Shown: positions 6,678 through 41,268, counted from the first letter of the stretch. The stretch is 44,709 bases of DNA from a virus (UHGV-0231863); one strand, 5' to 3'. The notes: generated by a model not told the origin, from the letters alone. Program-made: numbers and translations.

Positions 6678-6714
6678 GCTTATTCCTCGTGTTTAGGATT
6701 TGTCCTATACTAGC

Positions 6715-6921: not shown

Positions 6922-6936
6922 TGTTGGTGTAAGTGA

Positions 6937-6965
6937 ATAGTACCCTATTATATTGGGGTGTGCAA
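6937..6965 (-). promoter_or_regulatory. promoter TTGCAC-17-TACTAT with AATAG-N4-CTATT operator (6936-6949)
   Basis: Minus strand CTTGCACACcccaatataatagggTACTATTCAC upstream of Imm-like gene; near-identical to cassettes at 28984 and 30284. Confidence 0.55.
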
Positions 6966-17036: not shown

Positions 17037-17240
17037 CTACTCTTCTGATAACTTCTCCAGTACAAACGCCAGTTGTGCATTAGCGGCGTCTCTTTGCTGC
17101 CGTAGTCGTAGAACCTCTTCTTCTAGTTCCTTGATACGTTTTATTTCTCGCTTTAACTGCATAGCAAGAAGTTGCTCGCGGGCATTAAGAGCAGATTTTA
17201 CCAATTCGTTGCAGGCGTCAATATCAAACTCATTATTCAT
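17037..17240 (-). CDS. small coiled-coil protein
   Basis: 67 aa, heptad-rich; last gene of leftward operon. Confidence 0.4.
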   Translation of the reverse strand: MNNEFDIDACNELVKSALNAREQLLAMQLKREIKRIKELEEEVLRLRQQRDAANAQLAFVLEKLSEE

Positions 17241-18661
17241 TTCTTACCTCGTCTCTTCATGTAATTAAGCAACTCTTCCTGGACCGATTTCTTCTCGTCA
17301 GTACGCGAGGCAACAACCTCGTCCAGCGTGTCTTTAGCAACGATGTGATAGAGGAACACTGGTCGCTCGTGGCCCGCCTGCTTCTGGCGCACCGGGCCTA
17401 TACGCTCGACAACCTGCAAATAGTGCTCAAGGTTCCAGCCTTGCGAAATAAACGCCAGATGATGTCCGCCGTCCTGTAAATTCAAACCATGGCCGGCTGA
17501 CGCGGGGTGCACGCATAGGATTTCGATTTCGCCACGGTTCCACGCTTCCATCTGCTTATTGCCCTTCGCGCCTTTTGCAAAAGCCTGCGCCTGCGGGAAG
17601 CGCTTGAGGATGCGCTCCAGTTCGTGCTTGAACTGATAGGCGACTAGTAACGGCGCACCCTGCAACTCCTCGGCAATGGACGCCAGCGCGTCCAGTTTCG
17701 TGTCGTGTACTTTCTCCCAGTCTTTGGTTGCTTCGCCGTCTGGCCCAGATACATATACGGCACCGGACGCAATTTGCAAGCACTTCGACGTCTTCGCCGC
17801 AGCGTTAGCAGCTTCCACTTCCCCGCTCTCAAGTTCCGCGAATAACTTCTCCTCCATATCGATGTACGCCTGACGTGCTTTCTTCGGCAGGTCGATTTCA
17901 ACCGTAACAATAATCGGCGCTTCACACCCGAACCACTCAGCGGCGTCAATAGTGAGACTAATGTCTTTCATCTTCTGATGAATCTCATTATCCGCACCCG
18001 GTCGTGCGTGATACTCCCGCGCCATCGCGGATTTCCCTTTCTGTACCGAGTTAAACCAGCGGTCTGTGAATGCCGTGTACGAAGAACCAAGGCGCTCGCC
18101 AGCGTCGATAAACCAGTTCTGCCCCCACAAGTCCTTGAGGCCGTTCGGCGACGGTGTGCCTGTCAGGTTAATGAAACGCTTAACCTTTCCGAACGCCACT
18201 TTGCTTAGCGCCTTAGCCCGTTTGCTTCCTCCAGAACGGCTACGGAAAGATTTAAGCTTCGTGCTCTCATCGGCAACGATAACGGTAAAAGGCCAGTCGT
18301 CTTTGCCGTAGTAGTCAATCAGCCACTCGATAACTTCGTAGTTGGTACACACCACGTTAGCATCTGACTCCAGCGCCGCGATACGGCGCTTCTCTGAACC
18401 TGTCGCGTCTACGACACGCAGACATGGGAAATTCCATTTCTCTTGTTCTGCGGGCCACGTACCGGACGCAACACGTAAAGGGGCCAGAATTAACACTCGG
18501 TCGTCGTCATTAAGTTGCCCATTACGGAACAGTCGATTGAGAACCCACAACGTTGACCCCGACTTACCGCTGCCCATGCTCGCCCAGATATTGCAGCGAT
18601 GGTGCCGCAGCATGAACGAAGTCATGAGCTTCTGGTATTCGCGCCTTTGAAACTTACTCAT
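17237..18661 (-). CDS. SF2 DNA helicase (SNF2/DEAD-like)
   Basis: Walker A GSGKSGST, motif II VIVADESTKLK, C-terminal helicase block. Confidence 0.75.
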   Translation of the reverse strand: MSKFQRREYQKLMTSFMLRHHRCNIWASMGSGKSGSTLWVLNRLFRNGQLNDDDRVLILAPLRVASGTWPAEQEKWNFPCLRVVDATGSEKRRIAALESDANVVCTNYEVIEWLIDYYGKDDWPFTVIVADESTKLKSFRSRSGGSKRAKALSKVAFGKVKRFINLTGTPSPNGLKDLWGQNWFIDAGERLGSSYTAFTDRWFNSVQKGKSAMAREYHARPGADNEIHQKMKDISLTIDAAEWFGCEAPIIVTVEIDLPKKARQAYIDMEEKLFAELESGEVEAANAAAKTSKCLQIASGAVYVSGPDGEATKDWEKVHDTKLDALASIAEELQGAPLLVAYQFKHELERILKRFPQAQAFAKGAKGNKQMEAWNRGEIEILCVHPASAGHGLNLQDGGHHLAFISQGWNLEHYLQVVERIGPVRQKQAGHERPVFLYHIVAKDTLDEVVASRTDEKKSVQEELLNYMKRRGKK

Positions 18662-19478
18662 TTACCGCCCCCATGAATGCCTTTATAAATTCAGCGGCTA
18701 CTTGCGGGACGATGGCATTGCCGTAACCGCGCAATCGTCCCACTCTTGCGGGTATCCCATTAGCCAGCGGGAATGCGCCGGGTTCAACCGGCCGGAACTT
18801 TCCATCACGGCATCCGAGCCAGTCAGCATCTGACCAGAAGCCGTGGTGCGGGTTGGTTGACTCGCTTTCAATCCCTGCTCTGTTGAGTAGTCCAGCCTGT
18901 CGAATGTTCTGTCCCTCCCGTCCGTGCGAATCACTGTCTCTCCGCTCCCTCTGAAGTCGTTCGCTGTCGGTGTAGGCCAGTTCGTGCGCGCCAAAGAAGA
19001 GTCGTTCTCTTTTGTGCGGTGCGCCGACGCTACAAGCTGGGAGTACAGCAAACCCGACGGCGTAGTCTTCTCCTTCCAGGTGAGCTTGTAAATCGCACAT
19101 CCACGATTTTGCAATTGCTGCCGCAACCTGCTCCCCAAAGATGACTGGAGGGCGGCACTCGCTGATGAGGTCGAGGAAGACCGGCGCGAGGTGTCTCGGG
19201 TCGAACTGTCCGAGTTGTTTTCCTGCCGTGCTAAACGGTTGGCAAGGCGGGCTTCCCGTCCAGAGAGGCGTATCCTCCGAAACTCCCGCAAGTCTGAGCG
19301 CGAGAGGCCAGCCGCCGATACCAGCGAAAAAATGACACTGGGTGAACCCGTCAAGGTCTTCTGGCTTAACTTCGGTAATGCTTCTTTCATCTACAACTCC
19401 AAAAGGTATGTGACCCTGTTTTATCAACTCACGCAGCCACGCGGCTGCGCCTTTATCCCATTCATTGTAATAGTTCAT
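18654..19478 (-). CDS. DNA (cytosine-5)-methyltransferase
   Basis: Motif I FFAGIGGW, motif [10 protein letters not shown], motif [12 protein letters not shown], motif [11 protein letters not shown]. Confidence 0.85.
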
Positions 19479-19666
19479 TTCGCCACCAGAACTAACTCTT
19501 TACGCCCGAACGCCGTAACGTTACCGGTTACATCTTCGATAACCAGTTTACCGTTTGACTCGACGTACACCGTATCAACGGCAACAGGGTGGCGGGTCTT
19601 AACGTTGAAAATCATATCGCCGGGTACGATCTCGCGTGCTGGTTTGCGGTCATATTCGTGTTTCAT
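19475..19666 (-). CDS. hypothetical protein
   Basis: 63-aa ORF with AAGGA SD; internal promoter just upstream. Confidence 0.4.
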   Translation of the reverse strand: MKHEYDRKPAREIVPGDMIFNVKTRHPVAVDTVYVESNGKLVIEDVTGNVTAFGRKELVLVAK

Positions 19667-19696
19667 TTCTCAATTCCTTATATTGTTGGTGTATGA

Positions 19697-19981
19697 CTAA
19701 CTATAATAGTTCGCTATTAGGTCGTCAACCTGTTTAAACGAACCAACGACAAAAACATTCGCACCACGTTTACGCATACGCTCGTGCTCACGTAACTGGT
19801 GTGGGTCTGGCTTCGTGTTTTCGTCTTTCTTAACCTCGACGAACAAGACGATGCCGACGGGTAGAATTACCAGCAGGTCTGGGGCGCCGGAACGCCCCTC
19901 GTAGGAGAGTTTGCGAACGAGGCCGCCAAGGGCCTCTAATCGGTCTTTTGCGTATTTCTGTACGCGGCCCTCTTTAGTCAT
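19697..19981 (-). CDS. VRR-NUC domain nuclease
   Basis: GAPDLLVI...VEVK...Q motif pattern of the PD-(D/E)XK VRR-NUC family; start taken at internal Met of the track ORF. Confidence 0.7.
   Translation of the reverse strand: MTKEGRVQKYAKDRLEALGGLVRKLSYEGRSGAPDLLVILPVGIVLFVEVKKDENTKPDPHQLREHERMRKRGANVFVVGSFKQVDDLIANYYS
19700..19728 (-). promoter_or_regulatory. promoter TTGACG-17-TATAGT with operator AATAGttcgCTATT (19705-19718)
   Basis: Read on minus strand; overlaps 3' end of VRR-NUC gene, upstream of 19475..19666. Confidence 0.5.
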
Positions 19982-20130
19982 GAGCGTAGATCCCAAGTAA
20001 GGAAAGCCCCTCCTAGAACGGCGACACCGACAAACTTAAAGAACAGGCCGTAACAGAACATCGCGGCTATTCCCGCACCGAGTAACAGCGCGAGCATGGT
20101 TACTATCGTCCAAAATACAAACATTGTCAT
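19978..20130 (-). CDS. small membrane protein (approximate coordinates)
   Basis: ~50-codon hydrophobic ORF read by eye; stop overlaps VRR-NUC start. Confidence 0.3.
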   Translation of the reverse strand: MTMFVFWTIVTMLALLLGAGIAAMFCYGLFFKFVGVAVLGGAFLTWDLRS

Positions 20131-20212
20131 AATACGCACCCCTCACGTTTCGTATGTTCAATACCACAGCGCGGGCAGATTCGACAGTCTTCTTCATAAA
20201 ACCAGTAAATTT

Positions 20213-20344
20213 TCATTCCAGCACCCACAGATAAATTGCGATGAACATGCCCAATATGGCAACCATCATGACGTATTGACCCTCGTGACAGTAAACACCG
20301 GCGGCGAATCCAGCCAGTACCGCGATAATCAGTTTACTTAGCAT
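20213..20344 (-). CDS. small membrane protein (approximate coordinates)
   Basis: ~43-codon hydrophobic ORF overlapping the polymerase stop; a further ~30-codon Cys-containing ORF (~20124..20216) lies between the two. Confidence 0.3.
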   Translation of the reverse strand: MLSKLIIAVLAGFAAGVYCHEGQYVMMVAILGMFIAIYLWVLE

Positions 20345-22514
20345 AACGCTTCATCTCCGCACCTTCTGCTACAAGAGGGAAGCCTTCTGCCCACTCAGGC
20401 AACGCACACATTAATTTCTCCAGTTCATCTACATTGTATTCCGGTAAATCTGGTGTCTCGCAGATAATCTCATCGTGTACGTGAAGAACAATCGGGTAGC
20501 CGTTTGCTTCGACGTTCAGCAGTGCATTAGCCAACAAATCACGGCACAGCGCCTGAGTGCAGTTTTCCACCAGTTTACCAGAGTAGGTGTACTGGAAGCC
20601 CCACTGACGGGTTAACTGGTTTTCGCCCTGGTACTTGATGCGCACGTTGGTAGACACCTTCCCGTCTTCGTCTGTCTCTTTCGACACGCTTAGCCCAACA
20701 CCCGGATAAGACATAACGCGGCCCGACGGCAACGTCATCCGCAACCACCAACCGGCGACTTTGTTGCCGTTGTTGTCCGTTTCTACGTTGCGCGAAAACT
20801 TAACTCCCCGCGGCCCTGCGGTGAACTCTTTGCCCGGATTGCGGATAGCTGCCATAGCTGCGTCTTCAATATCCCGCCAGAAAGCTACTGTTTCCGGGTG
20901 TGACTCACGCCACATACGCTTGATAGCGTCGCAGGTACGCCACACTTTCTTATCAAGAATATAAGATGGTCGGTCATCATTTTCACCTGGACGTGGCGGT
21001 CGCTTGGCTTCCTGAATACGCGCCCACTCATATCCACGTGCGGTAGCAGCCCAGATGTGGTCGGGGAAAGTCCCGTCCATTGTTTTTGTCATATCAACAA
21101 GGTCAAGGCCGAGGTTCTTGGCGAACTGTACGAATGCGCCGACACCACCCGCGTAGCCAAGTCCAAGTTCGCATGCCTTACCAATCTGGCGTAAGTCTTT
21201 ACGTTCTTTCTTAATGTAATCCGGCCCCATGCCGAACATCTTGCCTGCGGTTACGCAGTAAATATCCAGCCCGGCACGGAACGTATCAAGCGCGGTTTCT
21301 TCGCCAGCCAGCCACGCCAAACCCCGGCCTTCAACGTTCGAGTAGTCGGCGACGACAAACTTATGTCCGGCTTCCGGGATAATGCAGCTGCGAACCGTAG
21401 ATGCCGTTAGCTTGGCTACATCAAAACGGCGATGTGCTCGGCCCTTAAGTAATGCTGAAATACCTTTATCCAGTTCATCATCGTGATAGTACCCACGCGC
21501 CAGGTTCTGCGGCTGGAAGCCTTTACCCGCAAATCGTAACGTACGTTTAGCTCCACCATACTGGATGCAACCGCGACGGCGGTCGTCAGACGAGCGGCCT
21601 AACAGCAGCGGGTTATATTTCGTTGACGCAGTGGATGCCGCCCCGAGGCGCATTTCTATAATCGTGCGGGCGTCGTCCGGTAAATCATCGTCAGCAAGCA
21701 GGTCGTTAAGCGTAGACTTCTGCGCGTTGTGGATGCGATGCGCAGGCGCCAGTTCACGCAGAATCGGCAGGAAGTCCTTACCTGTAAGCGAGCCGCCGTA
21801 TTTACGTTGGGCTTCTTCCTGTAACTGTGCCTTGTGTTTCTCCACAGCTTCAATTGCGGCTTCCGCCAGCGCAACGTCGACCTTAAACCCGCGGTCGTTA
21901 ATTAACTGGTCCAGTTCCAGTACACGGTCTTCGAACTCGGAGTTACCCCAACGCGGCAACTTATGGAACACTTCACGCATCGCGGTGATGTCGCTAACGG
22001 CGTACTTGATGAACAGCGCCCACTCATCCGGGTGCGTTTCAGCAGTGTAGCGGCGAATTTTGTAGTTCTTCGGCGTCGGTTTAGAGAAACGCTGAATAAG
22101 CGCTTTGCCTCGTTTGTCTTTCGCGTTGTCTGCAGACACGCCAAGCACTTCGCACAATGCGTCGAGTGAACCCGGCAGCGCGTGACGAAACGCCCAAATC
22201 ATCGTATCAATGGTGTTGCTTACGGGAATATCAAAGCCCCAGCAGTGTTTCATGATGAGCCTGTCGAACATTGAGCCGTTGTGCCATACCATCTTAATGC
22301 GACTATTTGGTTTCACCAGACGGCGTAACGCGCGGTGCAAATCCCCCGGCATGTCGCTGCCGTCTGTGCAATCCCATACCCGCACAGGCTCGTCGTCAAA
22401 AGCATATGTACAAATAAGGACTTCGGTAGTTGGATGCTCAGCGTAAGCGTAGGAACCAACTTTCTTCAAATCGGCTTCGGAGAATGTTTCAAAGTCTAAG
22501 AACAGGTAACTCAT
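20334..22514 (-). CDS. family A DNA polymerase (Pol I-like, with 3'-5' exonuclease)
   Basis: N-terminal exo motif LFLDFETFS; pol motif A VVADYSNVE, motif B RQIGKACELGLGYAGG, motif C HVHDEII. Confidence 0.9.
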   Translation of the reverse strand: MSYLFLDFETFSEADLKKVGSYAYAEHPTTEVLICTYAFDDEPVRVWDCTDGSDMPGDLHRALRRLVKPNSRIKMVWHNGSMFDRLIMKHCWGFDIPVSNTIDTMIWAFRHALPGSLDALCEVLGVSADNAKDKRGKALIQRFSKPTPKNYKIRRYTAETHPDEWALFIKYAVSDITAMREVFHKLPRWGNSEFEDRVLELDQLINDRGFKVDVALAEAAIEAVEKHKAQLQEEAQRKYGGSLTGKDFLPILRELAPAHRIHNAQKSTLNDLLADDDLPDDARTIIEMRLGAASTASTKYNPLLLGRSSDDRRRGCIQYGGAKRTLRFAGKGFQPQNLARGYYHDDELDKGISALLKGRAHRRFDVAKLTASTVRSCIIPEAGHKFVVADYSNVEGRGLAWLAGEETALDTFRAGLDIYCVTAGKMFGMGPDYIKKERKDLRQIGKACELGLGYAGGVGAFVQFAKNLGLDLVDMTKTMDGTFPDHIWAATARGYEWARIQEAKRPPRPGENDDRPSYILDKKVWRTCDAIKRMWRESHPETVAFWRDIEDAAMAAIRNPGKEFTAGPRGVKFSRNVETDNNGNKVAGWWLRMTLPSGRVMSYPGVGLSVSKETDEDGKVSTNVRIKYQGENQLTRQWGFQYTYSGKLVENCTQALCRDLLANALLNVEANGYPIVLHVHDEIICETPDLPEYNVDELEKLMCALPEWAEGFPLVAEGAEMKRYAK

Positions 22515-22534
22515 TATTTTCGACCCTTAGTAAA

Positions 22535-22554
22535 AAGGCCCAATGAAGGGCCTT
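22535..22554 (-). terminator. intra-operon hairpin (attenuator-like)
   Basis: AAGGCCC-aatgaa-GGGCCTT between SSB-like gene and polymerase. Confidence 0.35.
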
Positions 22555-22573
22555 AGTTAAATTGATTCAGATA

Positions 22574-23200
22574 TTAACGGCGACGACGTTCGCGGCGCGG
22601 TGCTTCATCCTCTTCATCGTCTTCAAGGTCATCGACGCTTGCGGCTACTTTAGAACCGCCAAACGCTTTACCTTCACCAACGTATTTAATAGCCAGCAGG
22701 TTAACGCCGAGGACTTTGTATTTCTGGCTGAACCAGATTTCAACGCTTACGTTAGCGACGCAGCCGCTGTAAACCTGTTCACCTTCAATCTGTTCGCCGT
22801 CTACATTGAAGTCCTGTTCTACCTGAGTCTCGCCTTTTTTAGAGGTTACAATCAGTGGCTGTTTCTGTGCCTTCGCCTTGAAGTAGAAGCCTTCCGGGAA
22901 GTCTTCAAACGGATTGTCGCGCTCGGCAATGTCTTTAATCGCACATTTATCCATGTGCTTACCTTCGCCGTAGTTGGACTTCATCCACTTCTCAGCGGCA
23001 GCTGCGCCCAACGCTTCTTCAACCACAGCGTAAACGGTGTCGTAGAGCGCGTCGATTTGTGCGTGGTCAGACGGCAGGATGATAGTCGCGCTGTACTGGC
23101 CTTTAGTGATTGAGCCATCATCGTTTTCACGGTCTTTTTCGCGTTCGAATACGTTAACCCATGCAGTGTTTACTTTACGCAGATTCAGTTTAATACCCAT
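22574..23200 (-). CDS. putative ssDNA-binding protein (DUF2815-like, acidic C-terminal tail)
   Basis: Acidic C-terminal tail DDLEDDEEDE typical of phage SSBs; sits next to a Cas4-like nuclease. Confidence 0.4.
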   Translation of the reverse strand: MGIKLNLRKVNTAWVNVFEREKDRENDDGSITKGQYSATIILPSDHAQIDALYDTVYAVVEEALGAAAAEKWMKSNYGEGKHMDKCAIKDIAERDNPFEDFPEGFYFKAKAQKQPLIVTSKKGETQVEQDFNVDGEQIEGEQVYSGCVANVSVEIWFSQKYKVLGVNLLAIKYVGEGKAFGGSKVAASVDDLEDDEEDEAPRRERRRR

Positions 23201-23253
23201 CGTGATTTCTCGCTTTTCAGTTTACTCCGGGAACTGCCCGGCCAGTGATTAGA

Positions 23254-23282
23254 ACTATAATAGCTAGCTATTCAGGTGTCAA
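23254..23282 (-). promoter_or_regulatory. promoter TTGACA-17-TATAGT with perfect 14-bp palindrome AATAGCTAGCTATT (23259-23272)
   Basis: Minus strand, intergenic between nuclease and SSB-like genes. Confidence 0.6.
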
Positions 23283-23286
23283 CACT

Positions 23287-24537
23287 TTATTCCGAATCTT
23301 CTTCACTAACCTGATTCCACTCAGGACGTTTGTCGTCTGCCGTTGCGACACATGGTGCGCCTGGCTTACGGGTAATAAACGGCTCAAGCGCTGCCATCTC
23401 ATCCGCAGAAAGAACTTTTGCTGCCTCCGTAGGGGACATCAATACCTCTTTTTTGAGAATGTCGCCGTGTGACACTTCAATCGCATCGGCATCTTTCCAC
23501 GCACGATTGCCCGGGCGACCTTCTACCAGTTTGTACCCTGGCACTTTCTTACCGGAATGCAATGCGGCGGACATCGCTTTCTCAACCTTGTCGATGTGCT
23601 GGCGTAACAGCGGCAACTTCTCATACTCAACTACGAGTTGCTCCGTCGTCAGTTCCAGCACAAAGTCGTCTTCAAGTTCTTCCGCCAGTACAGAATTAAC
23701 CGTCTTTGTACGCGCGGCACACTGTTCAGAGAACCGGCACCACTGGCAACCATCGACCGACGGTTTAAAGTCCGACGCTTTCAGGTTCTTCTTTCCACGG
23801 AAATAAGCATCAAGCGCTAACAGTGCCCGTTTCTGTGCGAACTTAGCGAACAGTTCCAGACCTTCGACCGAGATGTCCCACTCTGACGCACCCCCCGCGT
23901 ACGGCTGGAAGATGACCAGGCGCACTACTGTGATGTTATAACGTCTCTTGAGTCGGCGATAAACACCGAGAGCGTAAAGCATAAGCTGCTTGTTTTCTTT
24001 CGCTTCGACGCGATGCCGTCCTGTTTTCAGGTCACCAATAATGAGCATGTGCTCGTCGGTGTTTGCCAGTTCCTGTACGGCAACAAGGTCAGCAGTTCCG
24101 AACGTTTCAACGCCTTCGTAGCCTGGGTGCAACACCTCAGTAAGATTGACGCGCATTTCCAGCTTAGCGTAAGTCGCTACGTCGATAATCGCTTTGCAGT
24201 AGTCGGTGTACTTGCGCACCTGCTCAATCATGTCCGCCGTAATCAGTACCGCGCCTTTCATTGGGCTGATTAGCGCCTTAATCTGGCCTTTACCTTCATC
24301 CAGCACGTAAGCGCCGACTTCACGCTCTAATGGCAGAGCAGTGCCTTTGATGTACTGGTTAAGGTGCATCTCCGCTATGGTGTGGCATGCAGTCCCTGTA
24401 ACGGCGGCTTTACCAGACGTGTTGGGAATATCTTTCTCACAGGCCAGTGATGCACTGCACGCCAGCCACTTTTTAGCGCCAGACGGCGACAGTAAGGCGT
24501 GCACATCGTTATTGCCGCCGCGTTCCTTTAAAATCAT
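23287..24537 (-). CDS. PD-(D/E)XK exonuclease, Cas4/RecB-like (DUF2800-like)
   Basis: N-terminal LSPSGAKKWLACSAS, central IGDLKTG nuclease core, C-terminal Cys cluster CQWCRFSEQC. Confidence 0.7.
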   Translation of the reverse strand: MILKERGGNNDVHALLSPSGAKKWLACSASLACEKDIPNTSGKAAVTGTACHTIAEMHLNQYIKGTALPLEREVGAYVLDEGKGQIKALISPMKGAVLITADMIEQVRKYTDYCKAIIDVATYAKLEMRVNLTEVLHPGYEGVETFGTADLVAVQELANTDEHMLIIGDLKTGRHRVEAKENKQLMLYALGVYRRLKRRYNITVVRLVIFQPYAGGASEWDISVEGLELFAKFAQKRALLALDAYFRGKKNLKASDFKPSVDGCQWCRFSEQCAARTKTVNSVLAEELEDDFVLELTTEQLVVEYEKLPLLRQHIDKVEKAMSAALHSGKKVPGYKLVEGRPGNRAWKDADAIEVSHGDILKKEVLMSPTEAAKVLSADEMAALEPFITRKPGAPCVATADDKRPEWNQVSEEDSE

Positions 24538-24806
24538 ACCCTGCTCTCCCACTGGTCAATTAAATGTCGTGTCTTATGGTCGCAGTGCATAGCCCAGCCA
24601 TACATCGACTCGAAGACGTAAAAGTCCGGTTTGGCGAAAGTCGTGCGCTTAATATGTGACACGTGGCAGCCTATGTCTTTAGGCCGTGGCACTTTGCCTA
24701 AGTACGCCATATCTTCCATCTGGTGTGCACCGGACGGCGCACGCAATAACCATAGTGCCTCTGTGTTATCCCGCCGGTCAACGGCGCGGTATAGTTGGTA
24801 AATCAT
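24534..24806 (-). CDS. hypothetical protein
   Basis: 90-aa ORF with GAGGG SD; overlaps downstream start. Confidence 0.4.
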   Translation of the reverse strand: MIYQLYRAVDRRDNTEALWLLRAPSGAHQMEDMAYLGKVPRPKDIGCHVSHIKRTTFAKPDFYVFESMYGWAMHCDHKTRHLIDQWESRV

Positions 24807-24826
24807 AATCCCGACCCTCAGTTAAA

Positions 24827-24842
24827 GCGGCCCGAAGGCCGC
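24827..24842 (-). terminator. intra-operon UUCG-tetraloop hairpin
   Basis: GCGGCC-cgaa-GGCCGC on plus strand (UUCG loop on the transcribed strand). Confidence 0.3.
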
Positions 24843-24849
24843 GGGATAG

Positions 24850-25371
24850 TTATTCTTCTTCGAAATACTTGTTCTTGATTGCTGTCAGGCGCTCCAGATA
24901 CTCAGCCAGGTCTTCGTCTTTAATCGCTGCAATCTTCATCTTCTTACCGGTAAACTCTTCCAGCAGTTCGTCAGAATCGTCGCACGCGGCATCGCTTGGG
25001 CCTTCGTTAATCGCATCGTCGATAGCCTGAATCTGGTCGCGCAGAGACTGGTAATCGACTTCTTCTTTCTCTTCTTCCGGCTCTGGCGTTGGTTCCTCTA
25101 CTTTGTCCTTACGCGGCTTGCGCTTCGGCTTCTCTTCTTCTGCTGGTTTAGTGTCGACGATGTCTTCACCTTCAACCGGGATTTCTTTCGCCTTCTCGAC
25201 TTCTTCAAGTGCTTTAGCCAGTTCTTTTTTAACTGTCTCTACCCCAGTTACCGCGACGTCAACAGTCAATTCACCTACAGATTTGCTAGTCGGTTGTTTC
25301 ACACTGTTTGCAGCAATCAGTTCGTGGGCGACTACGAAACGTTCCAGTAATACCAAGAATTTCTCTAACAT
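24850..25371 (-). CDS. acidic low-complexity protein
   Basis: 173 aa, Glu/Lys/Pro-rich centre and acidic C-terminus; first gene downstream of the 25402-25431 promoter. Confidence 0.45.
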   Translation of the reverse strand: MLEKFLVLLERFVVAHELIAANSVKQPTSKSVGELTVDVAVTGVETVKKELAKALEEVEKAKEIPVEGEDIVDTKPAEEEKPKRKPRKDKVEEPTPEPEEEKEEVDYQSLRDQIQAIDDAINEGPSDAACDDSDELLEEFTGKKMKIAAIKDEDLAEYLERLTAIKNKYFEEE

Positions 25372-25401
25372 TTGTTTCTCTCCTCTCGTTTGGTATGTGT
25401 T

Positions 25402-25431
25402 AACTATAATAGCGAACTATTCACGTTGTCA
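25402..25431 (-). promoter_or_regulatory. promoter TTGACA-18-TATAGT with operator AATAGcgaaCTATT (25407-25420)
   Basis: Minus strand, divergent from XRE regulator gene; second degenerate operator AATATggtaCTATT at 25452-25465. Confidence 0.6.
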
Positions 25432-25496
25432 ATGGGCTTTTCTAAAATAATTAATATGGTACTATTCACATATCAACTGACTAAGGAGTAATTGGC

Positions 25497-25712
25497 ATGC
25501 AACCATCTGAACTAGGTATCCGTGTAGAGCAACGCCGTAAAGAACTCGGTATCTCCCAGCGCCATCTGGCTGTCCTGGCCGGTGTTTCCCAAGGCGCGAT
25601 TAACCAGCTGGCACTTGGGGTAACTCAGGACGTCCGCCCAGCGACGCTGTTTAAACTGGCGGAAGTGCTGCAAGTAGACGCCAAGTGGCTGGCGTTGGGT
25701 GAAGGGGCTTAA
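25497..25712 (+). CDS. XRE-family HTH transcriptional regulator (Cro/CI-like)
   Basis: HTH LGISQRHLAVLAGVSQGAINQLALG; divergently placed in the leftward operon next to operator palindromes. Confidence 0.8.
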   Translation: MQPSELGIRVEQRRKELGISQRHLAVLAGVSQGAINQLALGVTQDVRPATLFKLAEVLQVDAKWLALGEGA

Positions 25713-25728
25713 CGCCCCTTTATTTTTA
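25702..25728. terminator. terminator hairpin after XRE gene / end of primase gene
   Basis: AAGGGG-cttaacg-CCCCTT then TATTTTT. Confidence 0.5.
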
Positions 25729-25729
25729 C

Positions 25730-27991
25730 CTATTCCAAATCCTCCTCTGTCACTGTCAGCATTTCATTCGGTTCGTATATTGTCTTAGGAATTTTGTTGT
25801 CGTTTATACCCCACGGCAACCTGTATTGCTTAGGGATGGGCCTGTTGTTGTTATCCAGCCCAGAGACGATAACCCCCGCCTCGTGCATCTCTTCCAGTTT
25901 CTTTCGAAGGTCGTTATTAGCGTTAATCGGTACGCCGTAACTATCTTCTTTCGCCGCTTTGACGATAGCTGACATAGAGAACCCTCGCTTGTCGTCGCCT
26001 TGCTCCTGCAATTTACCTAATGCGTAAATAACCGTAGCCTCTTTGGAATCCAGTTTCTCGAACTGGCCTACCTTTTCTTTAACGGCTTCCTTCTGTTCGT
26101 CAGTCATACCTTCTACTTTCTTCACAAAGACAGAGAAGGCGTTGAAGTTGACAAAGACATCAATATGCGGATTTCCCGCGTCAAAATCGCGCACATCATC
26201 ACTGCTATACCCTTCCGGAAGCCCCATGAAGTTGTGAGTTGGTTCTTTCTTTTCCGGCGGCTCCGCTATCTGAATCTTCTGTATTACGAATCCTCTGGCT
26301 TTCTGCCGTTCTCCATTTCGGTTCTTTATGTGATACAGGTTTATCTCTAAGTTATTGTCGTTGTCTGGTTTATGCAGGAACATCCCGTTATCGATGGAGT
26401 TGTGAAAATCACTTCCACCCTTCGGCATCATGCCGTTTTCAGACGGCACAGTTTCGTCGATGTTTTTAGTCGGGTGCACCATAGCGCCTACCGCAGCGTT
26501 AAGCGTCGACGCTATTTCGTTAAGCGCCTGCGCCGCTTCTTTCATCGACCTGTTGTCGTTCTCGTCGAAGCCAGGTATGCAAGTTTGTAGGGTATCAAAC
26601 GTAACCTTTACAATTTTCTCTTCACCGGCGACACGGCGCATCATTCTCACCGCCTGGCGGCGCCATGCTTCATCAAGTAAATTACACCCATCCGCAACAC
26701 AATCGATAATGTGCAAGCGGTCCAGGCTATCGCCGAGGGCAATCTGTAGAGATTTTTTATGTCGCTCGAACGACTGTGCGCCTTCACCGGCGAAGATAAA
26801 TGCGTGACCTTCTGCGACCTCAGCACCACCGAACGCATATCTTTTTTCGGCGGCGATAGCAGCGTCAATCGCCATACTAAATGTTGACTTACCAGTGTGG
26901 GACTTTGCGCAAATGTAGAACGATTCGTTGGTCTGCATAAGGCCGTCTACTACGGGGTAAGCAGGTTCTTTTTCTACTTCCGGCTCGTCTTCGAGGTCTT
27001 CAAGCGTACAAGTTACAGGCTCCTCGTTCTCTGTGCGGTGCAGTTCTTCAATCTCTTCGTCCGGTAAGTCAGGCAAAGCCGCACGAATGCTGTTAATACT
27101 GATAGGTTGCTTGTCTATGTTAAGCTCGTCGGGCAGGCCGCACATACGCAAGGCCAAATGTTGCCGACGGTTAAGCTCGGTACAAGCGCCGTTGTTTGTG
27201 TGCTGGCACACGAAGCGCACCTCTTTACCGTCAAGCATGATGCTGGTGGAGCCTTTGCCTGTATGCAGATGTTCGTTCGGACACGGTACTTCGTACCCAC
27301 GACCTGACGGCAGCGCATCAAGACCCAACTCCGCTTCGCAAAAATACGCTATGTCGGCATTCAGCCCACGCTCATCGGCGGCAAGTGTCTTAGCTTCACG
27401 TTTACGCAGACCCATCTCTTCGGCTTTCTTGATGTACCGCTCAGCACGGATAACACGCCCTTCTGTGACCGTTATCTTCGACTCTTTATGGGGAAGGTAG
27501 ATAAGACGGTTGCCGTCTTCCGTGCAGTGGTCGCGCAATGCTTCATCTATTTCTAACTCGGCACAAATAGCACGTTGCACCATCCACGCATCGTTAGAGT
27601 TAAACGGCGTGCGAGCCGGAACCAGAACGCGGAAGGCGTAATCCCCGTTTTTGCACGCGTGCCGGTGTGACGCCGTTGTATGCAGAATGTTGAAGAACGG
27701 CGCATTCTTAAATTTGCGTGTCAGGTTGCGGTACTGAGTACGGTTGAGATGGTCAAAGTCGAACTTAACCACACTGTCTTCCAGAATCGCGTTCTTACGG
27801 CGACCACCAACAGGTGCGATAGCTTTCTGTTTAATCTTGGCGGCGTCGTACTCTTCCTTAGTCCACGACGGGTCCACGGATAAACGCTTCGATGTATCAC
27901 AGACATACTCTACGAACTGCTCCAGCGGCATTTCACGCGCTACAGGGTTTTTATCGAATGTGTTACGCAGCGTTGCAAAAACAATATTCAT
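25730..27991 (-). CDS. primase-helicase / replication initiation protein
   Basis: 753 aa; central P-loop CAKSHTGKST (RecA/DnaB-like ATPase); N-terminal region with His/Cys clusters consistent with a primase domain. Confidence 0.65.
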   Translation of the reverse strand: MNIVFATLRNTFDKNPVAREMPLEQFVEYVCDTSKRLSVDPSWTKEEYDAAKIKQKAIAPVGGRRKNAILEDSVVKFDFDHLNRTQYRNLTRKFKNAPFFNILHTTASHRHACKNGDYAFRVLVPARTPFNSNDAWMVQRAICAELEIDEALRDHCTEDGNRLIYLPHKESKITVTEGRVIRAERYIKKAEEMGLRKREAKTLAADERGLNADIAYFCEAELGLDALPSGRGYEVPCPNEHLHTGKGSTSIMLDGKEVRFVCQHTNNGACTELNRRQHLALRMCGLPDELNIDKQPISINSIRAALPDLPDEEIEELHRTENEEPVTCTLEDLEDEPEVEKEPAYPVVDGLMQTNESFYICAKSHTGKSTFSMAIDAAIAAEKRYAFGGAEVAEGHAFIFAGEGAQSFERHKKSLQIALGDSLDRLHIIDCVADGCNLLDEAWRRQAVRMMRRVAGEEKIVKVTFDTLQTCIPGFDENDNRSMKEAAQALNEIASTLNAAVGAMVHPTKNIDETVPSENGMMPKGGSDFHNSIDNGMFLHKPDNDNNLEINLYHIKNRNGERQKARGFVIQKIQIAEPPEKKEPTHNFMGLPEGYSSDDVRDFDAGNPHIDVFVNFNAFSVFVKKVEGMTDEQKEAVKEKVGQFEKLDSKEATVIYALGKLQEQGDDKRGFSMSAIVKAAKEDSYGVPINANNDLRKKLEEMHEAGVIVSGLDNNNRPIPKQYRLPWGINDNKIPKTIYEPNEMLTVTEEDLE

Positions 27992-28116
27992 TTCTTTTTC
28001 TCCGCACGTTCTAAGGCTTCCTGCATACGGCGCATTGCGCGGTTCATCTTTACCGGTGCGAAGAAATCAGCGCCGTGTTTCTGGCGGCGTAGCTGTGGAA
28101 CTATTAACTTCGTCAT
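27988..28116 (-). CDS. small basic protein (approximate coordinates)
   Basis: ~42-codon ORF with AGGA SD whose stop overlaps the primase start. Confidence 0.3.
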   Translation of the reverse strand: MTKLIVPQLRRQKHGADFFAPVKMNRAMRRMQEALERAEKKK

Positions 28117-28166
28117 TGTATAATCCTTGTGCTTACTTTGATGATTTATGCTTCGGCCCCGACGTT

Positions 28167-28400
28167 CTAGCGTTGGGGTTTCTTTTGTCTACGCACCGCA
28201 TTAACCCACTCTCCTTCGCTACGGTAAAAACTGCAATCAAGGATATCCTCTATAGAAAATTTAACTATTTTAGTGGGTCCACAAAAGTTATAAGGGAAAA
28301 GTTCTACATAACACCCATCGTCGGTTATATTTGACGCAATCTTGAAATAATATTTAATGCTGCCGTCTTCGCGGAAGCTACAACCCATACGCCCAATCAT
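28167..28400 (-). CDS. hypothetical protein
   Basis: 77-aa ORF between AlpA-like gene and primase. Confidence 0.4.
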   Translation of the reverse strand: MIGRMGCSFREDGSIKYYFKIASNITDDGCYVELFPYNFCGPTKIVKFSIEDILDCSFYRSEGEWVNAVRRQKKPQR

Positions 28401-28579
28401 TTCACGTTCTCCTTAATCCACTCTTCAACTTTATTACGGTCGAATGTTCCCGGTAAACGGCGACCCATAACCTTAATACAGCAATCCGGGAATTTACCAC
28501 TGCGCAACCAGTTATTAATTGTCTGACGCGTCACCCCGATACGCTCGGCTACTTCATTCTGTGTCATGTAATGTTGCAT
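28397..28579 (-). CDS. AlpA/Xis-like winged-helix DNA-binding protein
   Basis: MTQNEVAERIGVTRQTINNWLRSGKFP; AGGAG SD before internal ATG at 28579; first gene of the leftward operon. Confidence 0.6.
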   Translation of the reverse strand: MQHYMTQNEVAERIGVTRQTINNWLRSGKFPDCCIKVMGRRLPGTFDRNKVEEWIKENVK

Positions 28580-28610
28580 TTTTAAATCTCCTGTTTGTTT
28601 GGTGAAGCCA

Positions 28611-28639
28611 AGTATAGGATAGCGGGAATGTAAAAGCAA
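28611..28639 (-). promoter_or_regulatory. promoter TTGCTT-17-TATACT for leftward operon (AlpA-like gene first)
   Basis: Read on minus strand; ~30 nt upstream of the AGGAG SD. Confidence 0.45.
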
Positions 28640-28686
28640 CCAAAACACCACACAAAGTTACTAAGATACAAAAGATGCTACCGGTA

Positions 28687-28715
28687 TTGACTTTTACTTA
28701 AAAATATGGTAAGCT
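28687..28715 (+). promoter_or_regulatory. promoter TTGACT-17-TAAGCT (copy 1 of duplicated cassette) with palindrome AAGCTCAGcCTGAGCTT
   Basis: Plus strand; palindrome 28711-28727 overlaps -10; followed by identical 38-mer shared with 41272-41309. Confidence 0.45.
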
Positions 28716-28718
28716 CAG

Positions 28719-28756
28719 CCTGAGCTTGTGAAGTATGAACAAGCGACCGCGGCGCG
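28719..28756 (+). repeat. 38-nt block identical to 41272-41309 (copy 1)
   Basis: CCTGAGCTTGTGAAGTATGAACAAGCGACCGCGGCGCG; contains hairpin GCTTGT-gaagtatga-ACAAGC and ATG of micro-ORF MNKRPRR. Confidence 0.85.
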
Positions 28757-28901
28757 CGGCGGGCGAAACGAGCACGTGTAGCGTGTGGAGTGAGGCTCGC
28801 TGGCGCGTTTGGGAGGCCCAAAGTCTATTGTAATTCCCGCCTAAATATCTAAGTTACTGATTTGCCGTTGGTTATATCCGCAAGCTCACTCACTCACTCT
28901 T

Positions 28902-28938
28902 GGTGCCTTCGGCACCACGTTCGTTTCGTTTCGCTTGC
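28902..28938 (+). terminator. UUCG-tetraloop hairpin plus U-rich tract
   Basis: GGTGCC-ttcg-GGCACC followed by ACGTTCGTTTCGTTTCGCTT; preceded by (CTCA)x3. Confidence 0.45.
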
Positions 28939-28983
28939 TACCCCATTAAACGAAAGAATCACAACGGCAACGTAACTATTCTC

Positions 28984-29012
28984 TTGCACACACCAACATA
29001 ATAGGATACTAT
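28984..29012 (+). promoter_or_regulatory. promoter TTGCAC-17-TACTAT with operator AATAGgataCTATT (29000-29013)
   Basis: CTTGCACACaccaacataataggaTACTATTCAC then conserved AAACGAGA leader and GGAG SD. Confidence 0.55.
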
Positions 29013-29046
29013 TCACTTATCGAAACGAGACAGAGGAGTGAGGGCT

Positions 29047-29968: not shown

Positions 29969-30035
29969 TGTTCAATAGTTTGGGATTTTACTGAGTGACT
30001 TACGCTGCTACACAGCAGCGTACAACTTTAACTTA

Positions 30036-30059
30036 GTGTCGTCAAAAGGCGACACTTTC
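30036..30059 (+). terminator. terminator-like hairpin
   Basis: GTGTCG-tcaaaagg-CGACAC + TTT; preceded by 9-bp-arm inverted repeat TACGCTGCT-acac-AGCAGCGTA (~30001-30022). Confidence 0.4.
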
Positions 30060-30102
30060 ATCAAACGCAACAATCGAAGCGACTATTGCAGGAGATGCAA
30101 CA

Positions 30103-30276
30103 ATGATTACTAAAGAACAGGCTGAACGACTAATCACGTTAATCGACACGATGGTTGATGCGAAAACCGATTTAGCAACGGCGACAGAGGAATCCGCTAC
30201 CTGGTCGCTTGAAGAAAGAGAGGCAGAAGCGGAAAGGGAGTTACTGGCGTTCATCGACTCTATAACACACCAATAA
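30103..30276 (+). CDS. hypothetical early protein (approximate coordinates)
   Basis: 57-codon ORF with AGGAG SD; opposite-strand track ORF 30042..30254 is low-complexity and judged spurious. Confidence 0.4.
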   Translation: MITKEQAERLITLIDTMVDAKTDLATATEESATWSLEEREAEAERELLAFIDSITHQ

Positions 30277-30283
30277 AATTTAC

Positions 30284-30312
30284 TTGCACACTAAGATAGA
30301 ATAGGCTACTAT
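30284..30312 (+). promoter_or_regulatory. promoter TTGCAC-17-TACTAT with operator AATAGgctaCTATT (30300-30313)
   Basis: CTTGCACACtaagatagaataggcTACTATTCAT then AAACGAGAGGAGAG leader. Confidence 0.55.
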
Positions 30313-30342
30313 TCATTTACACAAACGAGAGGAGAGACAGAG

Positions 30343-32890: not shown

Positions 32891-32912
32891 ATCTGTTTTC
32901 TGTAATGACTAG

Positions 32913-32941
32913 TTGACTATTACCTTAGACCCTATTATATT
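32913..32941 (+). promoter_or_regulatory. promoter TTGACT-17-TATATT
   Basis: Follows two tandem terminators; leader contains ACAACGAGA and GGAG SD. Confidence 0.45.
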
Positions 32942-33873: not shown

Positions 33874-34044
33874 ATGTTCAGTGACATCAACGCAGCAATC
33901 GAAGAGGCAATCTGGCGTCGTTACAACGGCGAGCAACAACGGCACTTTTGCCTGGTGCAACGCGGAAACATGATTGCTGTGGTACAGGACCGCGATAACA
34001 AATATCCGAATGCGATGTGGACAACGAGGAATTTCTTAGGATGA
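33874..34044 (+). CDS. hypothetical early protein
   Basis: 56-codon ORF read by eye; stop overlaps next start. Confidence 0.35.
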   Translation: MFSDINAAIEEAIWRRYNGEQQRHFCLVQRGNMIAVVQDRDNKYPNAMWTTRNFLG

Positions 34045-41225: not shown

Positions 41226-41268
41226 AACTATTCGAATAGTTGACTTTTCACCAAAAATGTGCTAAGCT
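41226..41268 (+). promoter_or_regulatory. promoter TTGACT-17-TAAGCT (copy 2 of duplicated cassette) preceded by 16-bp palindrome AACTATTCGAATAGTT
   Basis: Palindrome 41226-41241 abuts -35 at 41240-41245; -10 at 41263-41268. Confidence 0.45.

What the first reader, a model, noticed from the sequence alone, without database searches (positions are those of the whole stretch)
25402..25465. Palindromic operator AATAG-N4-CTATT embedded in at least six promoters on both strands
Perfect copies of the 14-bp inverted repeat sit at 6936-6949, 19705-19718, 23259-23272 (fully palindromic AATAGCTAGCTATT), 25407-25420, 29000-29013 and 30300-30313, plus a degenerate copy at 25452-25465. In every case the site lies in the spacer/-10 region of a sigma70-like promoter. 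A 10-specified-base palindrome is expected far less than once by chance in 44.7 kb, so six copies indicate a dimeric regulator controlling a regulon of leftward and rightward early promoters. The XRE-type HTH gene (25497..25712) sits between two copies and is the obvious candidate.
Basis: seen in the sequence. Interest (0 to 1): 0.7.

Follow-up and report, generated by a model that had tools for sequence, protein, structure and literature searches.

The report
Repressor binding sites in phage promoters
A 14-base mirror-image DNA motif sits inside nearly every recognisable promoter of this E. coli-killing phage; it is most likely the docking site of a small phage repressor related to phage 434 Cro, an ordinary kind of switch not yet studied in this phage group.

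Summary
AATAG-N4-CTATT occurs 6 times exactly (0.05 expected), and three further one-mismatch copies also lie in promoters (25453, 32908, 41235).

The window is a Kagunavirus (Guernseyvirinae) genome, a group described as lytic. Every copy overlaps a sigma70-like promoter, in three registers: over the -10, in the spacer, or around the -35.

Across about 45 Kagunavirus and Jerseyvirus genomes the two half-sites are almost invariant, while the central four bases and the flanks vary. Pantoea phage AH01 carries AATAC-N4-GTATT at equivalent promoters. The TS6 group carries a different 16-bp dyad. So the binder is phage-encoded and co-evolves with the phage.

The best candidate is the 71-aa XRE protein (25497-25712). 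Its closest solved relative is phage 434 Cro, whose operators are also 14-bp dyads. It is the only helix-turn-helix protein I found in all motif-bearing lineages sampled, and two sites lie in its own control region. The KilA-N, NinH-like and AlpA-like proteins fit the distribution worse.

One caveat is that the XRE recognition helix differs between Kagunavirus and Jerseyvirus although the operator is the same. Binding is untested.

The repeat was already published, mislabelled as "phage RNA polymerase promoters". This is a new member of a known kind, of moderate interest.

The parts
25408..25421 (.). Operator O1, AATAGCGAACTATT. It lies in the spacer of the leftward promoter of the p173/nuclease block.
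   Evidence: Exact match. Half-sites show no deviation in 40 related genomes, while N4 takes 6 forms.
25453..25466 (.). Operator O2, AATATGGTACTATT (one mismatch). It overlaps the core promoter or start region of the XRE gene.
   Evidence: The same imperfect left half AATAT is present in all 40 Kagunavirus sequences compared.
25497..25712 (+). XRE / 434-Cro-like gene (71 aa), the proposed operator-binding repressor. It appears monocistronic.
   Evidence: Pfam HTH_3, E 9.7e-12. Best solved relative is phage 434 Cro, E 1.8e-6 over residues 6-68. Homologues are present in every related lineage sampled.
25691..25716 (+). Terminator-like hairpin with a T-rich tail at the end of the XRE gene.
25403..25432 (-). 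Class B promoter TTGACA-18-TATAGT, with O1 filling the spacer. Drives p173 (24850-25371) and downstream genes.
   Evidence: Promoter scan, 11 of 12 matches; sequence context.
23259..23272 (.). Operator AATAGCTAGCTATT, in the spacer of the promoter at 23254-23282 (minus strand, TTGACA-17-TATAGT). That promoter lies ahead of the DUF2815 and DNA polymerase genes.
   Evidence: The site is conserved in 47 genomes, with 10 different N4 sequences.
19705..19718 (.). Operator AATAGTTCGCTATT, in the spacer of the promoter at 19700-19728 (minus strand, TTGACG-17-TATAGT). It lies at the 3' end of the VRR-NUC gene, ahead of the methylase and helicase genes.
   Evidence: The site is conserved in 46 genomes, with 10 different N4 sequences.
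29000..29013 (.). Operator AATAGGATACTATT. It overlaps the -10 (TACTAT, 29007-29012) of the class A promoter TTGCAC (28984-28989)-17-TACTAT, which drives the rightward small genes.
30300..30313 (.). Operator AATAGGCTACTATT. It overlaps the -10 (30307-30312) of the class A promoter with -35 TTGCAC at 30284-30289, which points rightward toward the holin and endolysin genes.
6936..6949 (.). Operator AATAGTACCCTATT, in the divergent region between the superinfection-immunity/nucleotide-kinase operon (leftward) and the tail genes (rightward). The leftward class A promoter is TTGCAC (6965-6960)-17-TACTAT (6942-6937). A possible rightward partner is TTGGTG (6924-6929)-16-TATTAT (6946-6951).
   Evidence: The equivalent SETP7 site at 14330 has a -35-like hexamer 7 nt from each side of the dyad; the promoter reading is mine.
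32908..32921 (.). Imperfect operator ACTAGTTGACTATT enclosing the -35 (TTGACT) of the class C promoter at 32913-32941 (TTGACT-17-TATATT). It follows the post-endolysin terminator and lies ahead of the small genes, terminase and portal.
   Evidence: The site reads ACTAG..CTATT in Kagunavirus and AATAG..CTAGT in Jerseyvirus, so it stays imperfect but a different half is degenerate.
41235..41248 (.). Imperfect operator AATAGTTGACTTTT enclosing the -35 of the putative promoter TTGACT (41240-41245)-17-TAAGCT (41263-41268), ahead of the spanin, scaffold and capsid genes.
   Evidence: The same promoter sequence is listed as host promoter HP1 in fBC-Eco01. SETP7 has AGTAGACTTCTATT at the equivalent place.
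28397..28579 (-). AlpA/excisionase-like HTH_17 gene (60 aa from the ATG at 28579), the rival candidate binder. Its own putative promoter, TTGCTT-17-TATACT at about 28636-28608, has no dyad.
   Evidence: Pfam HTH_17, E 3.1e-8. Found by tblastn only in Kagunavirus and Jerseyvirus. Upstream sequence read.

Best explanation
The 14-bp dyad AATAG-N4-CTATT is the operator of a phage-encoded dimeric helix-turn-helix repressor. The repressor is most probably the 71-aa XRE protein encoded at 25497-25712, a homologue of phage 434 Cro.

Proposed mechanism:
- One dimer binds each dyad, with each recognition helix reading the outer 4-5 bp of a half-site. The central 4 bp are not read.
- Every dyad overlaps the core of a sigma70-type promoter. 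It lies over the -10 (class A: 6936, 29000, 30300, 25453), in the spacer (class B: 19705, 23259, 25408), or around the -35 (class C: 32908, 41235). A bound dimer therefore blocks host RNA polymerase.
- The protein is made from its own promoter in the divergent O1/O2 region. As it accumulates it shuts down the replication and early operons, and feeds back on itself through O2.
- The evolutionarily fixed one-mismatch sites at its own promoter and at the two structural/lysis-block promoters should bind more weakly and be repressed later or less.

What is shown: the sites exist, are enriched, lie in promoter-like sequence, are under selection, and vary between phage lineages. The XRE protein is homologous to 434 Cro.

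What is inferred: that XRE is the binder, that binding represses, and the affinity hierarchy.
For: Enrichment: 6 exact copies against 0.05 expected.

Position: all copies lie in consensus sigma70 promoter contexts, in three different registers. That fits steric repression, not an RNA-polymerase recognition element or a position-dependent activator.

Selection: at equivalent promoters in about 45 Kagunavirus/Jerseyvirus genomes the half-sites are almost invariant. N4 varies (10, 10 and 6 different N4 sequences at the three class B sites) and so do the flanks. In class B the left half-site and most of the right lie in the spacer, which sigma70 does not read.

Lineage variation:
- Pantoea phage AH01 has AATAC-N4-GTATT five times (0.04 expected), in promoter-like contexts that include the XRE control region and the immunity/tail divergent region.
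- phiEap-2-like phages have AATAN-N4-NTATT in the same promoter architecture.
- TS6-group phages have TATTA-N6-TAATA instead (3 exact copies against 0.03 expected).
- TS6 and Jerseyvirus both infect Salmonella, which argues against a host factor.

XRE candidacy:
- Pfam HTH_3.
- Closest solved relative is 434 Cro, itself 71 aa (E 1.8e-6). By established knowledge, 434 operators are 14-bp dyads, ACAA-N6-TTGT, with an unread centre.
- The Gln that opens the recognition helix is invariant in the five aligned XRE sequences, which represent four lineages.
- Two dyads flank its promoter in Kagunavirus, Jerseyvirus and AH01.
- It is the only helix-turn-helix protein I found shared by all motif-bearing lineages.
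Against: No binding or transcription data exist for this phage.

The XRE recognition helix differs between Kagunavirus (SQGAINQL) and Jerseyvirus (SQSLITHL) at four of eight positions, and the proteins are only 50% identical. Yet both genera use the same AATAG-N4-CTATT. No simple residue-to-base covariation separates motif types across the eight XRE groups.

The only RNA-seq time course of a Kagunavirus is asynchronous, with at most 9% phage reads. It classes XRE as 'middle', and classes the DNA polymerase, methylase and immunity genes as 'late'. That is not what simple early shut-off predicts.

Promoters are consensus predictions only. For class A an alternative -10 (TATAAT/CATAAT) just upstream of the dyad is possible.
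Confidence: 0.6

Rival explanations
1. The dyads are operators, but the binder is the AlpA/excisionase-like HTH_17 protein (28397-28579, minus strand). It would be made first, from a dyad-free promoter, and would then act on all the dyad-bearing promoters.
For: It has an HTH_17 domain. It is much better conserved between Kagunavirus and Jerseyvirus than XRE is, roughly 80% over the 56-60-aa protein by my count of the alignment (which reports 63% over the whole 84-aa ORF), and those two genera share the identical operator. Its putative promoter lacks a dyad. The corresponding gene of phage K1B4 is one of four genes classed as early.
Against: No homologue was detected in AH01 (complete genome) or in the 20-kb phiEap-2-like locus, and both keep related dyads at the same promoter positions. 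By general knowledge, excisionase/AlpA-type winged helices usually bind direct repeats as monomers rather than 14-bp dyads. None of the dyads lies next to its gene.
Confidence: 0.12
2. The dyads are bound by a host transcription factor, or by an unrecognised small phage protein, and not by XRE.
For: The XRE recognition helix does not track operator type cleanly. Many small early ORFs have no assigned function.
Against: The dyad differs between phage lineages that share Salmonella as host: Jerseyvirus has AATAG-N4-CTATT and TS6 has TATTA-N6-TAATA. No other gene in the 17-35 kb region is shared by all motif-bearing lineages except replication enzymes and the acidic protein p173. I recall no E. 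coli factor with this consensus; that is from memory, not a test.
Confidence: 0.13
3. The repeat is a phage-specific promoter element, read by a phage RNA polymerase or by host polymerase redirected by a phage factor. This is how it was labelled for phage fBC-Eco01.
For: PHIRE finds it as the dominant repeat, and the fBC-Eco01 paper lists seven copies as 'phage RNAP promoters', with consensus tgAATAGTa-ccTATTat-T.
Against: No RNA polymerase gene is annotated in three related genomes, and Pfam scans of a sample of the window's other ORFs found none. The element is dyad-symmetric. It occupies three different registers relative to good -35 and -10 hexamers, and occurs in both orientations relative to transcription. 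The promoters already resemble sigma70 promoters.
Confidence: 0.05
4. The symmetry is a by-product of back-to-back divergent promoters whose -10 elements form the two halves, with no protein other than RNA polymerase involved.
For: At 6936, and at the equivalent SETP7 site 14330, a -35-like hexamer lies on each side of the dyad, and genes diverge from it.
Against: Most dyads are not in divergent regions: 19705, 23259 and 30300 have same-strand genes on both sides. In class B the left half-site lies in the spacer. In class A only one orientation gives a usable -10 (TACTAT against CCCTAT or TCCTAT). This idea also cannot explain the concerted G-to-C change of both halves in AH01.
Confidence: 0.05

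Closest known systems
Phage 434 Cro / 434 repressor and their 14-bp operators (ACAA-N6-TTGT)
   Same: The regulator is the same size (71 aa) and homologous in sequence to 434 Cro (E 1.8e-6). It is an HTH_3 / lambda-repressor-like domain. The operator is a 14-bp dyad with conserved outer bases and a free centre. The operators overlap sigma70 promoters. The regulator gene is transcribed divergently from a repressed promoter, and there is a weaker site on its own promoter.
   Different: The half-site sequence is different. Single operators are scattered over about nine promoters around the genome, instead of two triple clusters (OR and OL). No partner CI repressor, integrase or lysogeny module is present. 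The phage group is described as lytic, and no prophage copy of the XRE control region was found in 5,426 complete E. coli genomes.
Dispersed-operator repressors of temperate phages: P1 C1 and mycobacteriophage L5 gp71 (from general knowledge)
   Same: One small repressor has many single binding sites spread across the whole genome, controlling many transcription units.
   Different: Those sites are asymmetric, and in L5 many of them lie inside transcription units as 'stoperators'. They maintain lysogeny. Here the sites are dyads, all lie in promoters, and no lysogeny genes are present.
'Phage RNAP promoters' PP1-PP7 of Escherichia phage fBC-Eco01 (PMC9825357) and the seven PHIRE promoters of VB_EcoS-Golestan (PMC7203180)
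   Same: For fBC-Eco01 it is the same sequence element in a sister Kagunavirus: TGAATAGTACCCTATTATAT and similar, including the imperfect O2 copy. The Golestan paper reports only a count of seven PHIRE hits; I did not read its Table S4, but Golestan's genome carries eight exact dyads.
   Different: Those papers report it as a promoter for a phage RNA polymerase. No such polymerase is encoded. The dyad symmetry, the link to an XRE protein and the lineage-specific variants were not noted there.

Membership tests
Cro/CI-type (XRE, HTH_3) phage repressor-operator system, 434-like | Regulator with a lambda-repressor-like HTH_3 domain | tested here: met
   Pfam HTH_3, E 9.7e-12. phmmer hits to 434 Cro (1.8e-6), 434 repressor (1.3e-5) and P22 C2 (3e-3).
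Cro/CI-type (XRE, HTH_3) phage repressor-operator system, 434-like | Dyad-symmetric operator of about 14-18 bp, with conserved outer bases and a variable centre | tested here: met
   AATAG-N4-CTATT. Half-sites are almost invariant and N4 is variable across about 45 genomes.
Cro/CI-type (XRE, HTH_3) phage repressor-operator system, 434-like | Operators overlap the core of the regulated promoters | tested here: met
   All nine sites overlap -35, spacer or -10 of consensus sigma70 promoters. These are sequence predictions only; start sites are not mapped.
Cro/CI-type (XRE, HTH_3) phage repressor-operator system, 434-like | Direct, sequence-specific binding of the regulator to the operator | not testable with these tools
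   Needs EMSA, footprinting or ChIP.
Cro/CI-type (XRE, HTH_3) phage repressor-operator system, 434-like | Lambdoid switch layout: tripartite OR/OL clusters shared by Cro and a CI repressor, plus a lysogeny module | tested here: not met
   Sites are single and dispersed; only O1/O2 are paired. No CI, integrase or S24 peptidase is annotated in fKuEco01, SETP7 or Golestan. No prophage copy was found in 5,426 E. coli genomes.
Phage-RNA-polymerase promoters (the label used in PMC9825357) | A phage-encoded RNA polymerase | tested here: not met
   None is annotated in three related genomes. The segments of the window that are absent from fKuEco01 lie in the structural-gene region or hold the KilA-N gene; the ORFs I scanned there gave no polymerase hit.
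Phage-RNA-polymerase promoters (the label used in PMC9825357) | Fixed orientation and fixed distance to the transcription start | tested here: not met
   The element is a dyad. It is found in three registers relative to the -35/-10 hexamers and on both strands.
MerR-type spacer-binding activators | Dyad in an over-long (19-20 bp) spacer, and a regulator with a MerR wHTH plus coiled coil | tested here: not met
   Class B spacers are 17-18 bp. The AlpA-like protein is 60 aa with only weak MerR_1 similarity (E 4.7e-3, below the cut-off).
Dispersed-operator immunity repressors (P1 C1, L5 gp71) | Asymmetric sites, some within transcription units, maintaining a prophage | tested here: not met
   The sites are symmetric and all lie in promoters. 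No prophage copies were found.

The most novel reading that the evidence does not exclude
A single 71-aa Cro-like protein acts as a genome-wide governor of a phage that lacks any lysogeny module. Perfect operators sit at the replication and early promoters. Evolutionarily fixed one-mismatch operators sit at its own promoter and at the two structural/lysis-block promoters. Together these would form an affinity ladder that times the whole infection programme. Because almost every promoter carries a site, the same protein might also allow a repressed carrier state. One hint for this is a Kagunavirus genome deposited as a 44-kb circular 'plasmid' of a clinical E. coli isolate (CP088689.1).
Probability: 0.2. 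Interest if true: 0.55.

Novelty: new member of a known kind. Interest (0 to 1): 0.35.

Why it matters
Kagunavirus and Jerseyvirus phages are among the E. coli and Salmonella phages most often isolated for therapy and food safety, and one of them (CM001) is cited as a synthetic-biology model. Their transcription programme has not been characterised, and the literature currently mislabels this element as a phage-polymerase promoter.

Recognising it as a Cro-type operator regulon has three consequences:
- It gives a testable map of promoters and their control.
- It provides a compact orthogonal repressor/operator pair, with natural specificity variants (AATAG, AATAC, and the 16-bp TS6 dyad).
- It flags a possible route to repressed persistence, which matters when such phages are declared strictly lytic.

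Tried and rejected
- **KilA-N protein (37956-38609, minus strand).** The Pfam hit is weak. The gene lies in a segment absent from fKuEco01 and Golestan, which keep all the dyads. Rejected as the binder.
- **NinH-like protein (34017-34277).** Not detected in AH01, which has the dyad. Present at 67% identity in TS6, which lacks it. Rejected.
- **AlpA-like protein.** Kept only as a minor rival (see rivals).
- **Residue-to-base covariation.** I compared the XRE recognition helix with dyad type over eight XRE groups from 80 IMG/VR loci. No clean rule emerged, so the result is inconclusive.
- **Other dyads in distant groups.** I did not run a systematic search in the L057, L063 and L070 groups. Reading their XRE-upstream regions by eye and testing the dyads found there for recurrence in the locus gave nothing convincing.
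- **Rfam scan of the whole window.** No hit, so there is no known RNA element at the sites.
- **Published RNA-seq of Kagunavirus K1B4.** Too asynchronous and coarse to assign promoter classes.
- **Literature searches** for an operator or Cro study in Guernseyvirinae. None found.
- **Cruciform or hairpin function.** Not computed. Rejected because 5-bp arms with a 4-nt loop are too short.
- **Minus-strand ORF 30042-30254.** It would have made 30300 a divergent region, but it is a low-complexity antisense artefact.

Full report
**1. The observation**

A pattern search finds AATAG-N4-CTATT exactly six times: at 6936, 19705, 23259, 25408, 29000 and 30300. The expectation from dinucleotide-preserving shuffles is 0.05, and no shuffle reached six. 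In my own shuffles no 5-N4-5 palindrome of any sequence exceeded three copies.

With one mismatch allowed there are eleven matches against 0.72 expected. Three of the extra five lie in promoter-like intergenic sequence:
- 32908;
- 41235.

The other two (13132, 39975) lie inside genes and are probably chance. Both copies near the XRE gene lie upstream of it, not on either side.

**2. What the window is**

The window is a near-complete Kagunavirus genome (subfamily Guernseyvirinae), about 96% identical over 12 kb to Escherichia phage vB_EcoS_fKuEco01. Annotated relatives show the usual siphovirus layout and no RNA polymerase, integrase or CI repressor. Pfam scans of a sample of the window's other ORFs found none either.

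The gene blocks relevant to the dyads are:
- a leftward replication block (17037-25371);
- the lone rightward XRE gene (25497-25712), followed by a terminator-like hairpin;
- a leftward primase-helicase block headed by an AlpA-like gene (25730-28579);
- rightward small genes, lysis genes, then packaging and structural genes;
- a small leftward operon (4511-6921) for the superinfection-immunity and nucleotide-kinase genes.

**3. Anatomy of the sites**

Oriented by the direction of transcription, the sites fall into three classes.

| Class | Sites | Layout |
|---|---|---|
| B (leftward) | 19705, 23259, 25408 | TTGAC(A/G), 4-5 nt, then AATAGnnnnCTAT-TATAGT. The dyad fills a 17-18-bp spacer and touches the -10 by one base. 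|
| A | 29000 and 30300 (rightward), 6936 (leftward), 25453 (rightward) | TTGCAC, 10 nt, then AATAGGnTACTATT. The -10 TACTAT lies inside the right half. At 25453, ahead of XRE, the -35 is weak in Kagunavirus but is TTGCAC in SETP7. |
| C | 32908, 41235 | The -35 TTGACT sits in the centre of an imperfect dyad (ACTAG-TTGA-CTATT; AATAG-TTGA-CTTTT). |

With start sites estimated about 7 nt downstream of each -10, the dyad centres lie near -12 (class A), -18 (class B) and -33 (class C). All three positions would block RNA polymerase. None fits an activator or a fixed promoter element.

The AlpA-like operon has a reasonable promoter (TTGCTT-17-TATACT, about 28636-28608) with no dyad.

At 6936 a second promoter may fire rightward toward the tail genes: TTGGTG-16-TATTAT, which uses the other half of the dyad. 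In SETP7 the equivalent dyad has a -35-like hexamer 7 nt away on each side. One bound dimer could therefore close a divergent promoter pair. This is inference.

**4. Comparative evidence that the dyad is a protein-binding site**

fKuEco01 has the same six sites, Golestan has eight, and the Salmonella Jerseyvirus SETP7 has five at equivalent promoters. SETP7's control and early regions are too diverged from the window to align at the DNA level.

I fetched 80 related loci from IMG/VR using an XRE protein alignment and compared equivalent sites in about 45 Kagunavirus and Jerseyvirus genomes. The results were:
- The half-sites are almost invariant. The number of genomes with a deviating half-site is 0 of 40 at P25408, 3 of 46 at P19705 and 4 of 47 at P23259.
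- The central four bases take 6-10 different forms per site.
- The neighbouring bases also vary.
- In class A only the last two central bases are fixed (TA, part of the -10).
- O2 has the same imperfect left half, AATAT, in all 40 Kagunavirus sequences.
- The 32908 site is always imperfect. The degenerate half is the left one in Kagunavirus and the right one in Jerseyvirus.

This is the pattern expected for a dimer that reads the outer bases only, with some sites held at lower affinity.

**5. The dyad changes with phage lineage, not with host**

- Pantoea phage AH01, a more distant member of the subfamily, has AATAC-N4-GTATT five times (0.04 expected). The copies lie in promoter-like contexts, including the immunity/tail divergent region and both sides of the XRE promoter. 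Both half-sites have changed in concert at all five exact sites.
- phiEap-2-like phages have AATAN-N4-NTATT in a TTGNNN-7 nt-dyad promoter layout.
- TS6-group phages lack the 14-bp dyad. They carry TATTA-N6-TAATA at promoters with the same architecture: three exact copies against 0.03 expected, plus one-mismatch copies conserved within the group.

TS6 and Jerseyvirus both infect Salmonella, so a host factor is an unlikely binder.

**6. Which protein binds**

The XRE protein matches Pfam HTH_3. Its best match among solved structures is phage 434 Cro, also 71 aa, followed by the 434 repressor and P22 C2. By established knowledge, 434 operators are 14-bp dyads (ACAA-N6-TTGT), and the Gln that opens the recognition helix contacts the outermost adenine. 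The corresponding Gln (Q32) is invariant in the five aligned XRE sequences, which represent four lineages.

XRE homologues sit at the same divergent position in every lineage sampled. Its promoter is flanked by two dyads in Kagunavirus, Jerseyvirus and AH01.

The alternatives fit worse:
- The AlpA-like HTH_17 protein is detectable only in Kagunavirus and Jerseyvirus. Ten AH01 proteins I scanned gave no HTH_17 hit.
- The NinH-like protein is not detected in AH01 but is present in TS6.
- The KilA-N-like gene lies in a window segment missing from fKuEco01 and Golestan.

The main caveat concerns the recognition helix. Kagunavirus and Jerseyvirus XRE proteins are only 50% identical, and their recognition helices differ (SQGAINQL against SQSLITHL), although the operator is identical. 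I could not derive a residue-to-base rule across the eight XRE groups. Lambda CI and Cro show that different helices can read one operator, so this weakens the assignment but does not refute it.

**7. Published data**

The repeat is already in print. The fBC-Eco01 paper lists seven copies, including the imperfect O2 copy, as 'phage RNAP promoters' with consensus tgAATAGTa-ccTATTat-T. The Golestan paper reports seven PHIRE promoters. Neither paper notes the dyad symmetry, the absence of a phage polymerase, or a regulator.

One RNA-seq time course exists for a Kagunavirus, K1B4. It is asynchronous, with at most 9% phage reads. It places the AlpA-like gene among four early genes, XRE among the middle genes, and the DNA polymerase, methylase and immunity genes among the late genes. 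This neither supports nor clearly contradicts the model, and I give it little weight.

I found no operator or Cro study for this subfamily.

**8. Verdict**

I put about 85% on the dyads being operators of a phage-encoded dimeric DNA-binding protein that represses sigma70 promoters. I put about 60% on XRE being that protein.

It works like 434 Cro but is not a lambdoid switch. The operators are single and spread over about nine promoters, there is no CI partner, and there is no lysogeny module. No prophage copy of the XRE control region was found in 5,426 complete E. coli genomes.

I rate it a new member of a known kind. The interest is moderate and mostly practical: it corrects the annotation, gives a promoter and regulon map for widely used therapeutic phages, and offers natural specificity variants.

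Noticed in passing
window 25428-25460: A type I-E CRISPR array in E. coli strain 2017.09.02CC (NZ_AP025214.2) holds a 33-nt spacer 100% identical to this stretch. The stretch runs from just after O1 into O2 of the XRE control region.
   Followed up: partly
L086 (CP088689.1, whole 44,086-bp record): A Kagunavirus genome is deposited as the circular, non-mobilizable 'plasmid pC16EC0033-2' of a human blood E. coli isolate. It is 92% identical over the XRE region. This could be a carrier state or a culture contaminant.
   Followed up: partly
window 38752-40689, extra segment 39411-40304: The Mu-F-like head morphogenesis gene encodes 645 aa here, against about 347 aa in fKuEco01, Golestan and SETP7. 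The extra ~0.9 kb is absent from all three and gives a weak Pfam Intein_splicing hit. It may be an intein.
   Followed up: no
window 37956-38609 (minus strand): A KilA-N-like gene lies on the opposite strand between the portal and head morphogenesis genes, with its own promoter-like site (38670-38641). It is absent from fKuEco01 and Golestan and present in SETP7.
   Followed up: partly
window 28580-28999: About 420 nt between the AlpA-like gene and the 29000 promoter are non-coding. They contain a GC-rich palindrome (28744-28765), the run GTGAGTGAGTGAG, and the hairpin GGTGCCGAAGGCACC. There is no Rfam hit. TS6 has iteron-like repeats at the equivalent place. This may be a replication origin.
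   Followed up: no
window 25303-25380 (minus strand): The ribosome-binding site and first ~23 codons of the acidic p173 gene (phrog_3127, function unknown) are conserved at the DNA level even in distant phages, including Serratia phage Otaku and Enterobacter phage phiEap-2.
   Followed up: no
L004 (Salmonella phage TS6) 872, 22955, 29675; L064, L069, L071, L073: TS6-group phages carry a different 16-bp dyad, TATTA-N6-TAATA, in promoters with the same architecture as the window's dyad-bearing promoters. There are 3 exact copies against 0.03 expected.
   Followed up: partly
window 29974-29987: AATAGTTTGGGATT is a two-mismatch remnant of a dyad that is perfect (AATAGGTTACTATT) in Golestan and several other Kagunaviruses. 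It lies just upstream of a conserved hairpin.
   Followed up: no
window 25408/25453; L002 32996/33051; L005 42398/42463: O1-to-O2 spacing is 45 bp in the window and 43-45 bp across Kagunavirus. It is 55 bp in SETP7 and 65 bp in AH01. The steps of about one helical turn may preserve the relative face of the two sites.
   Followed up: no
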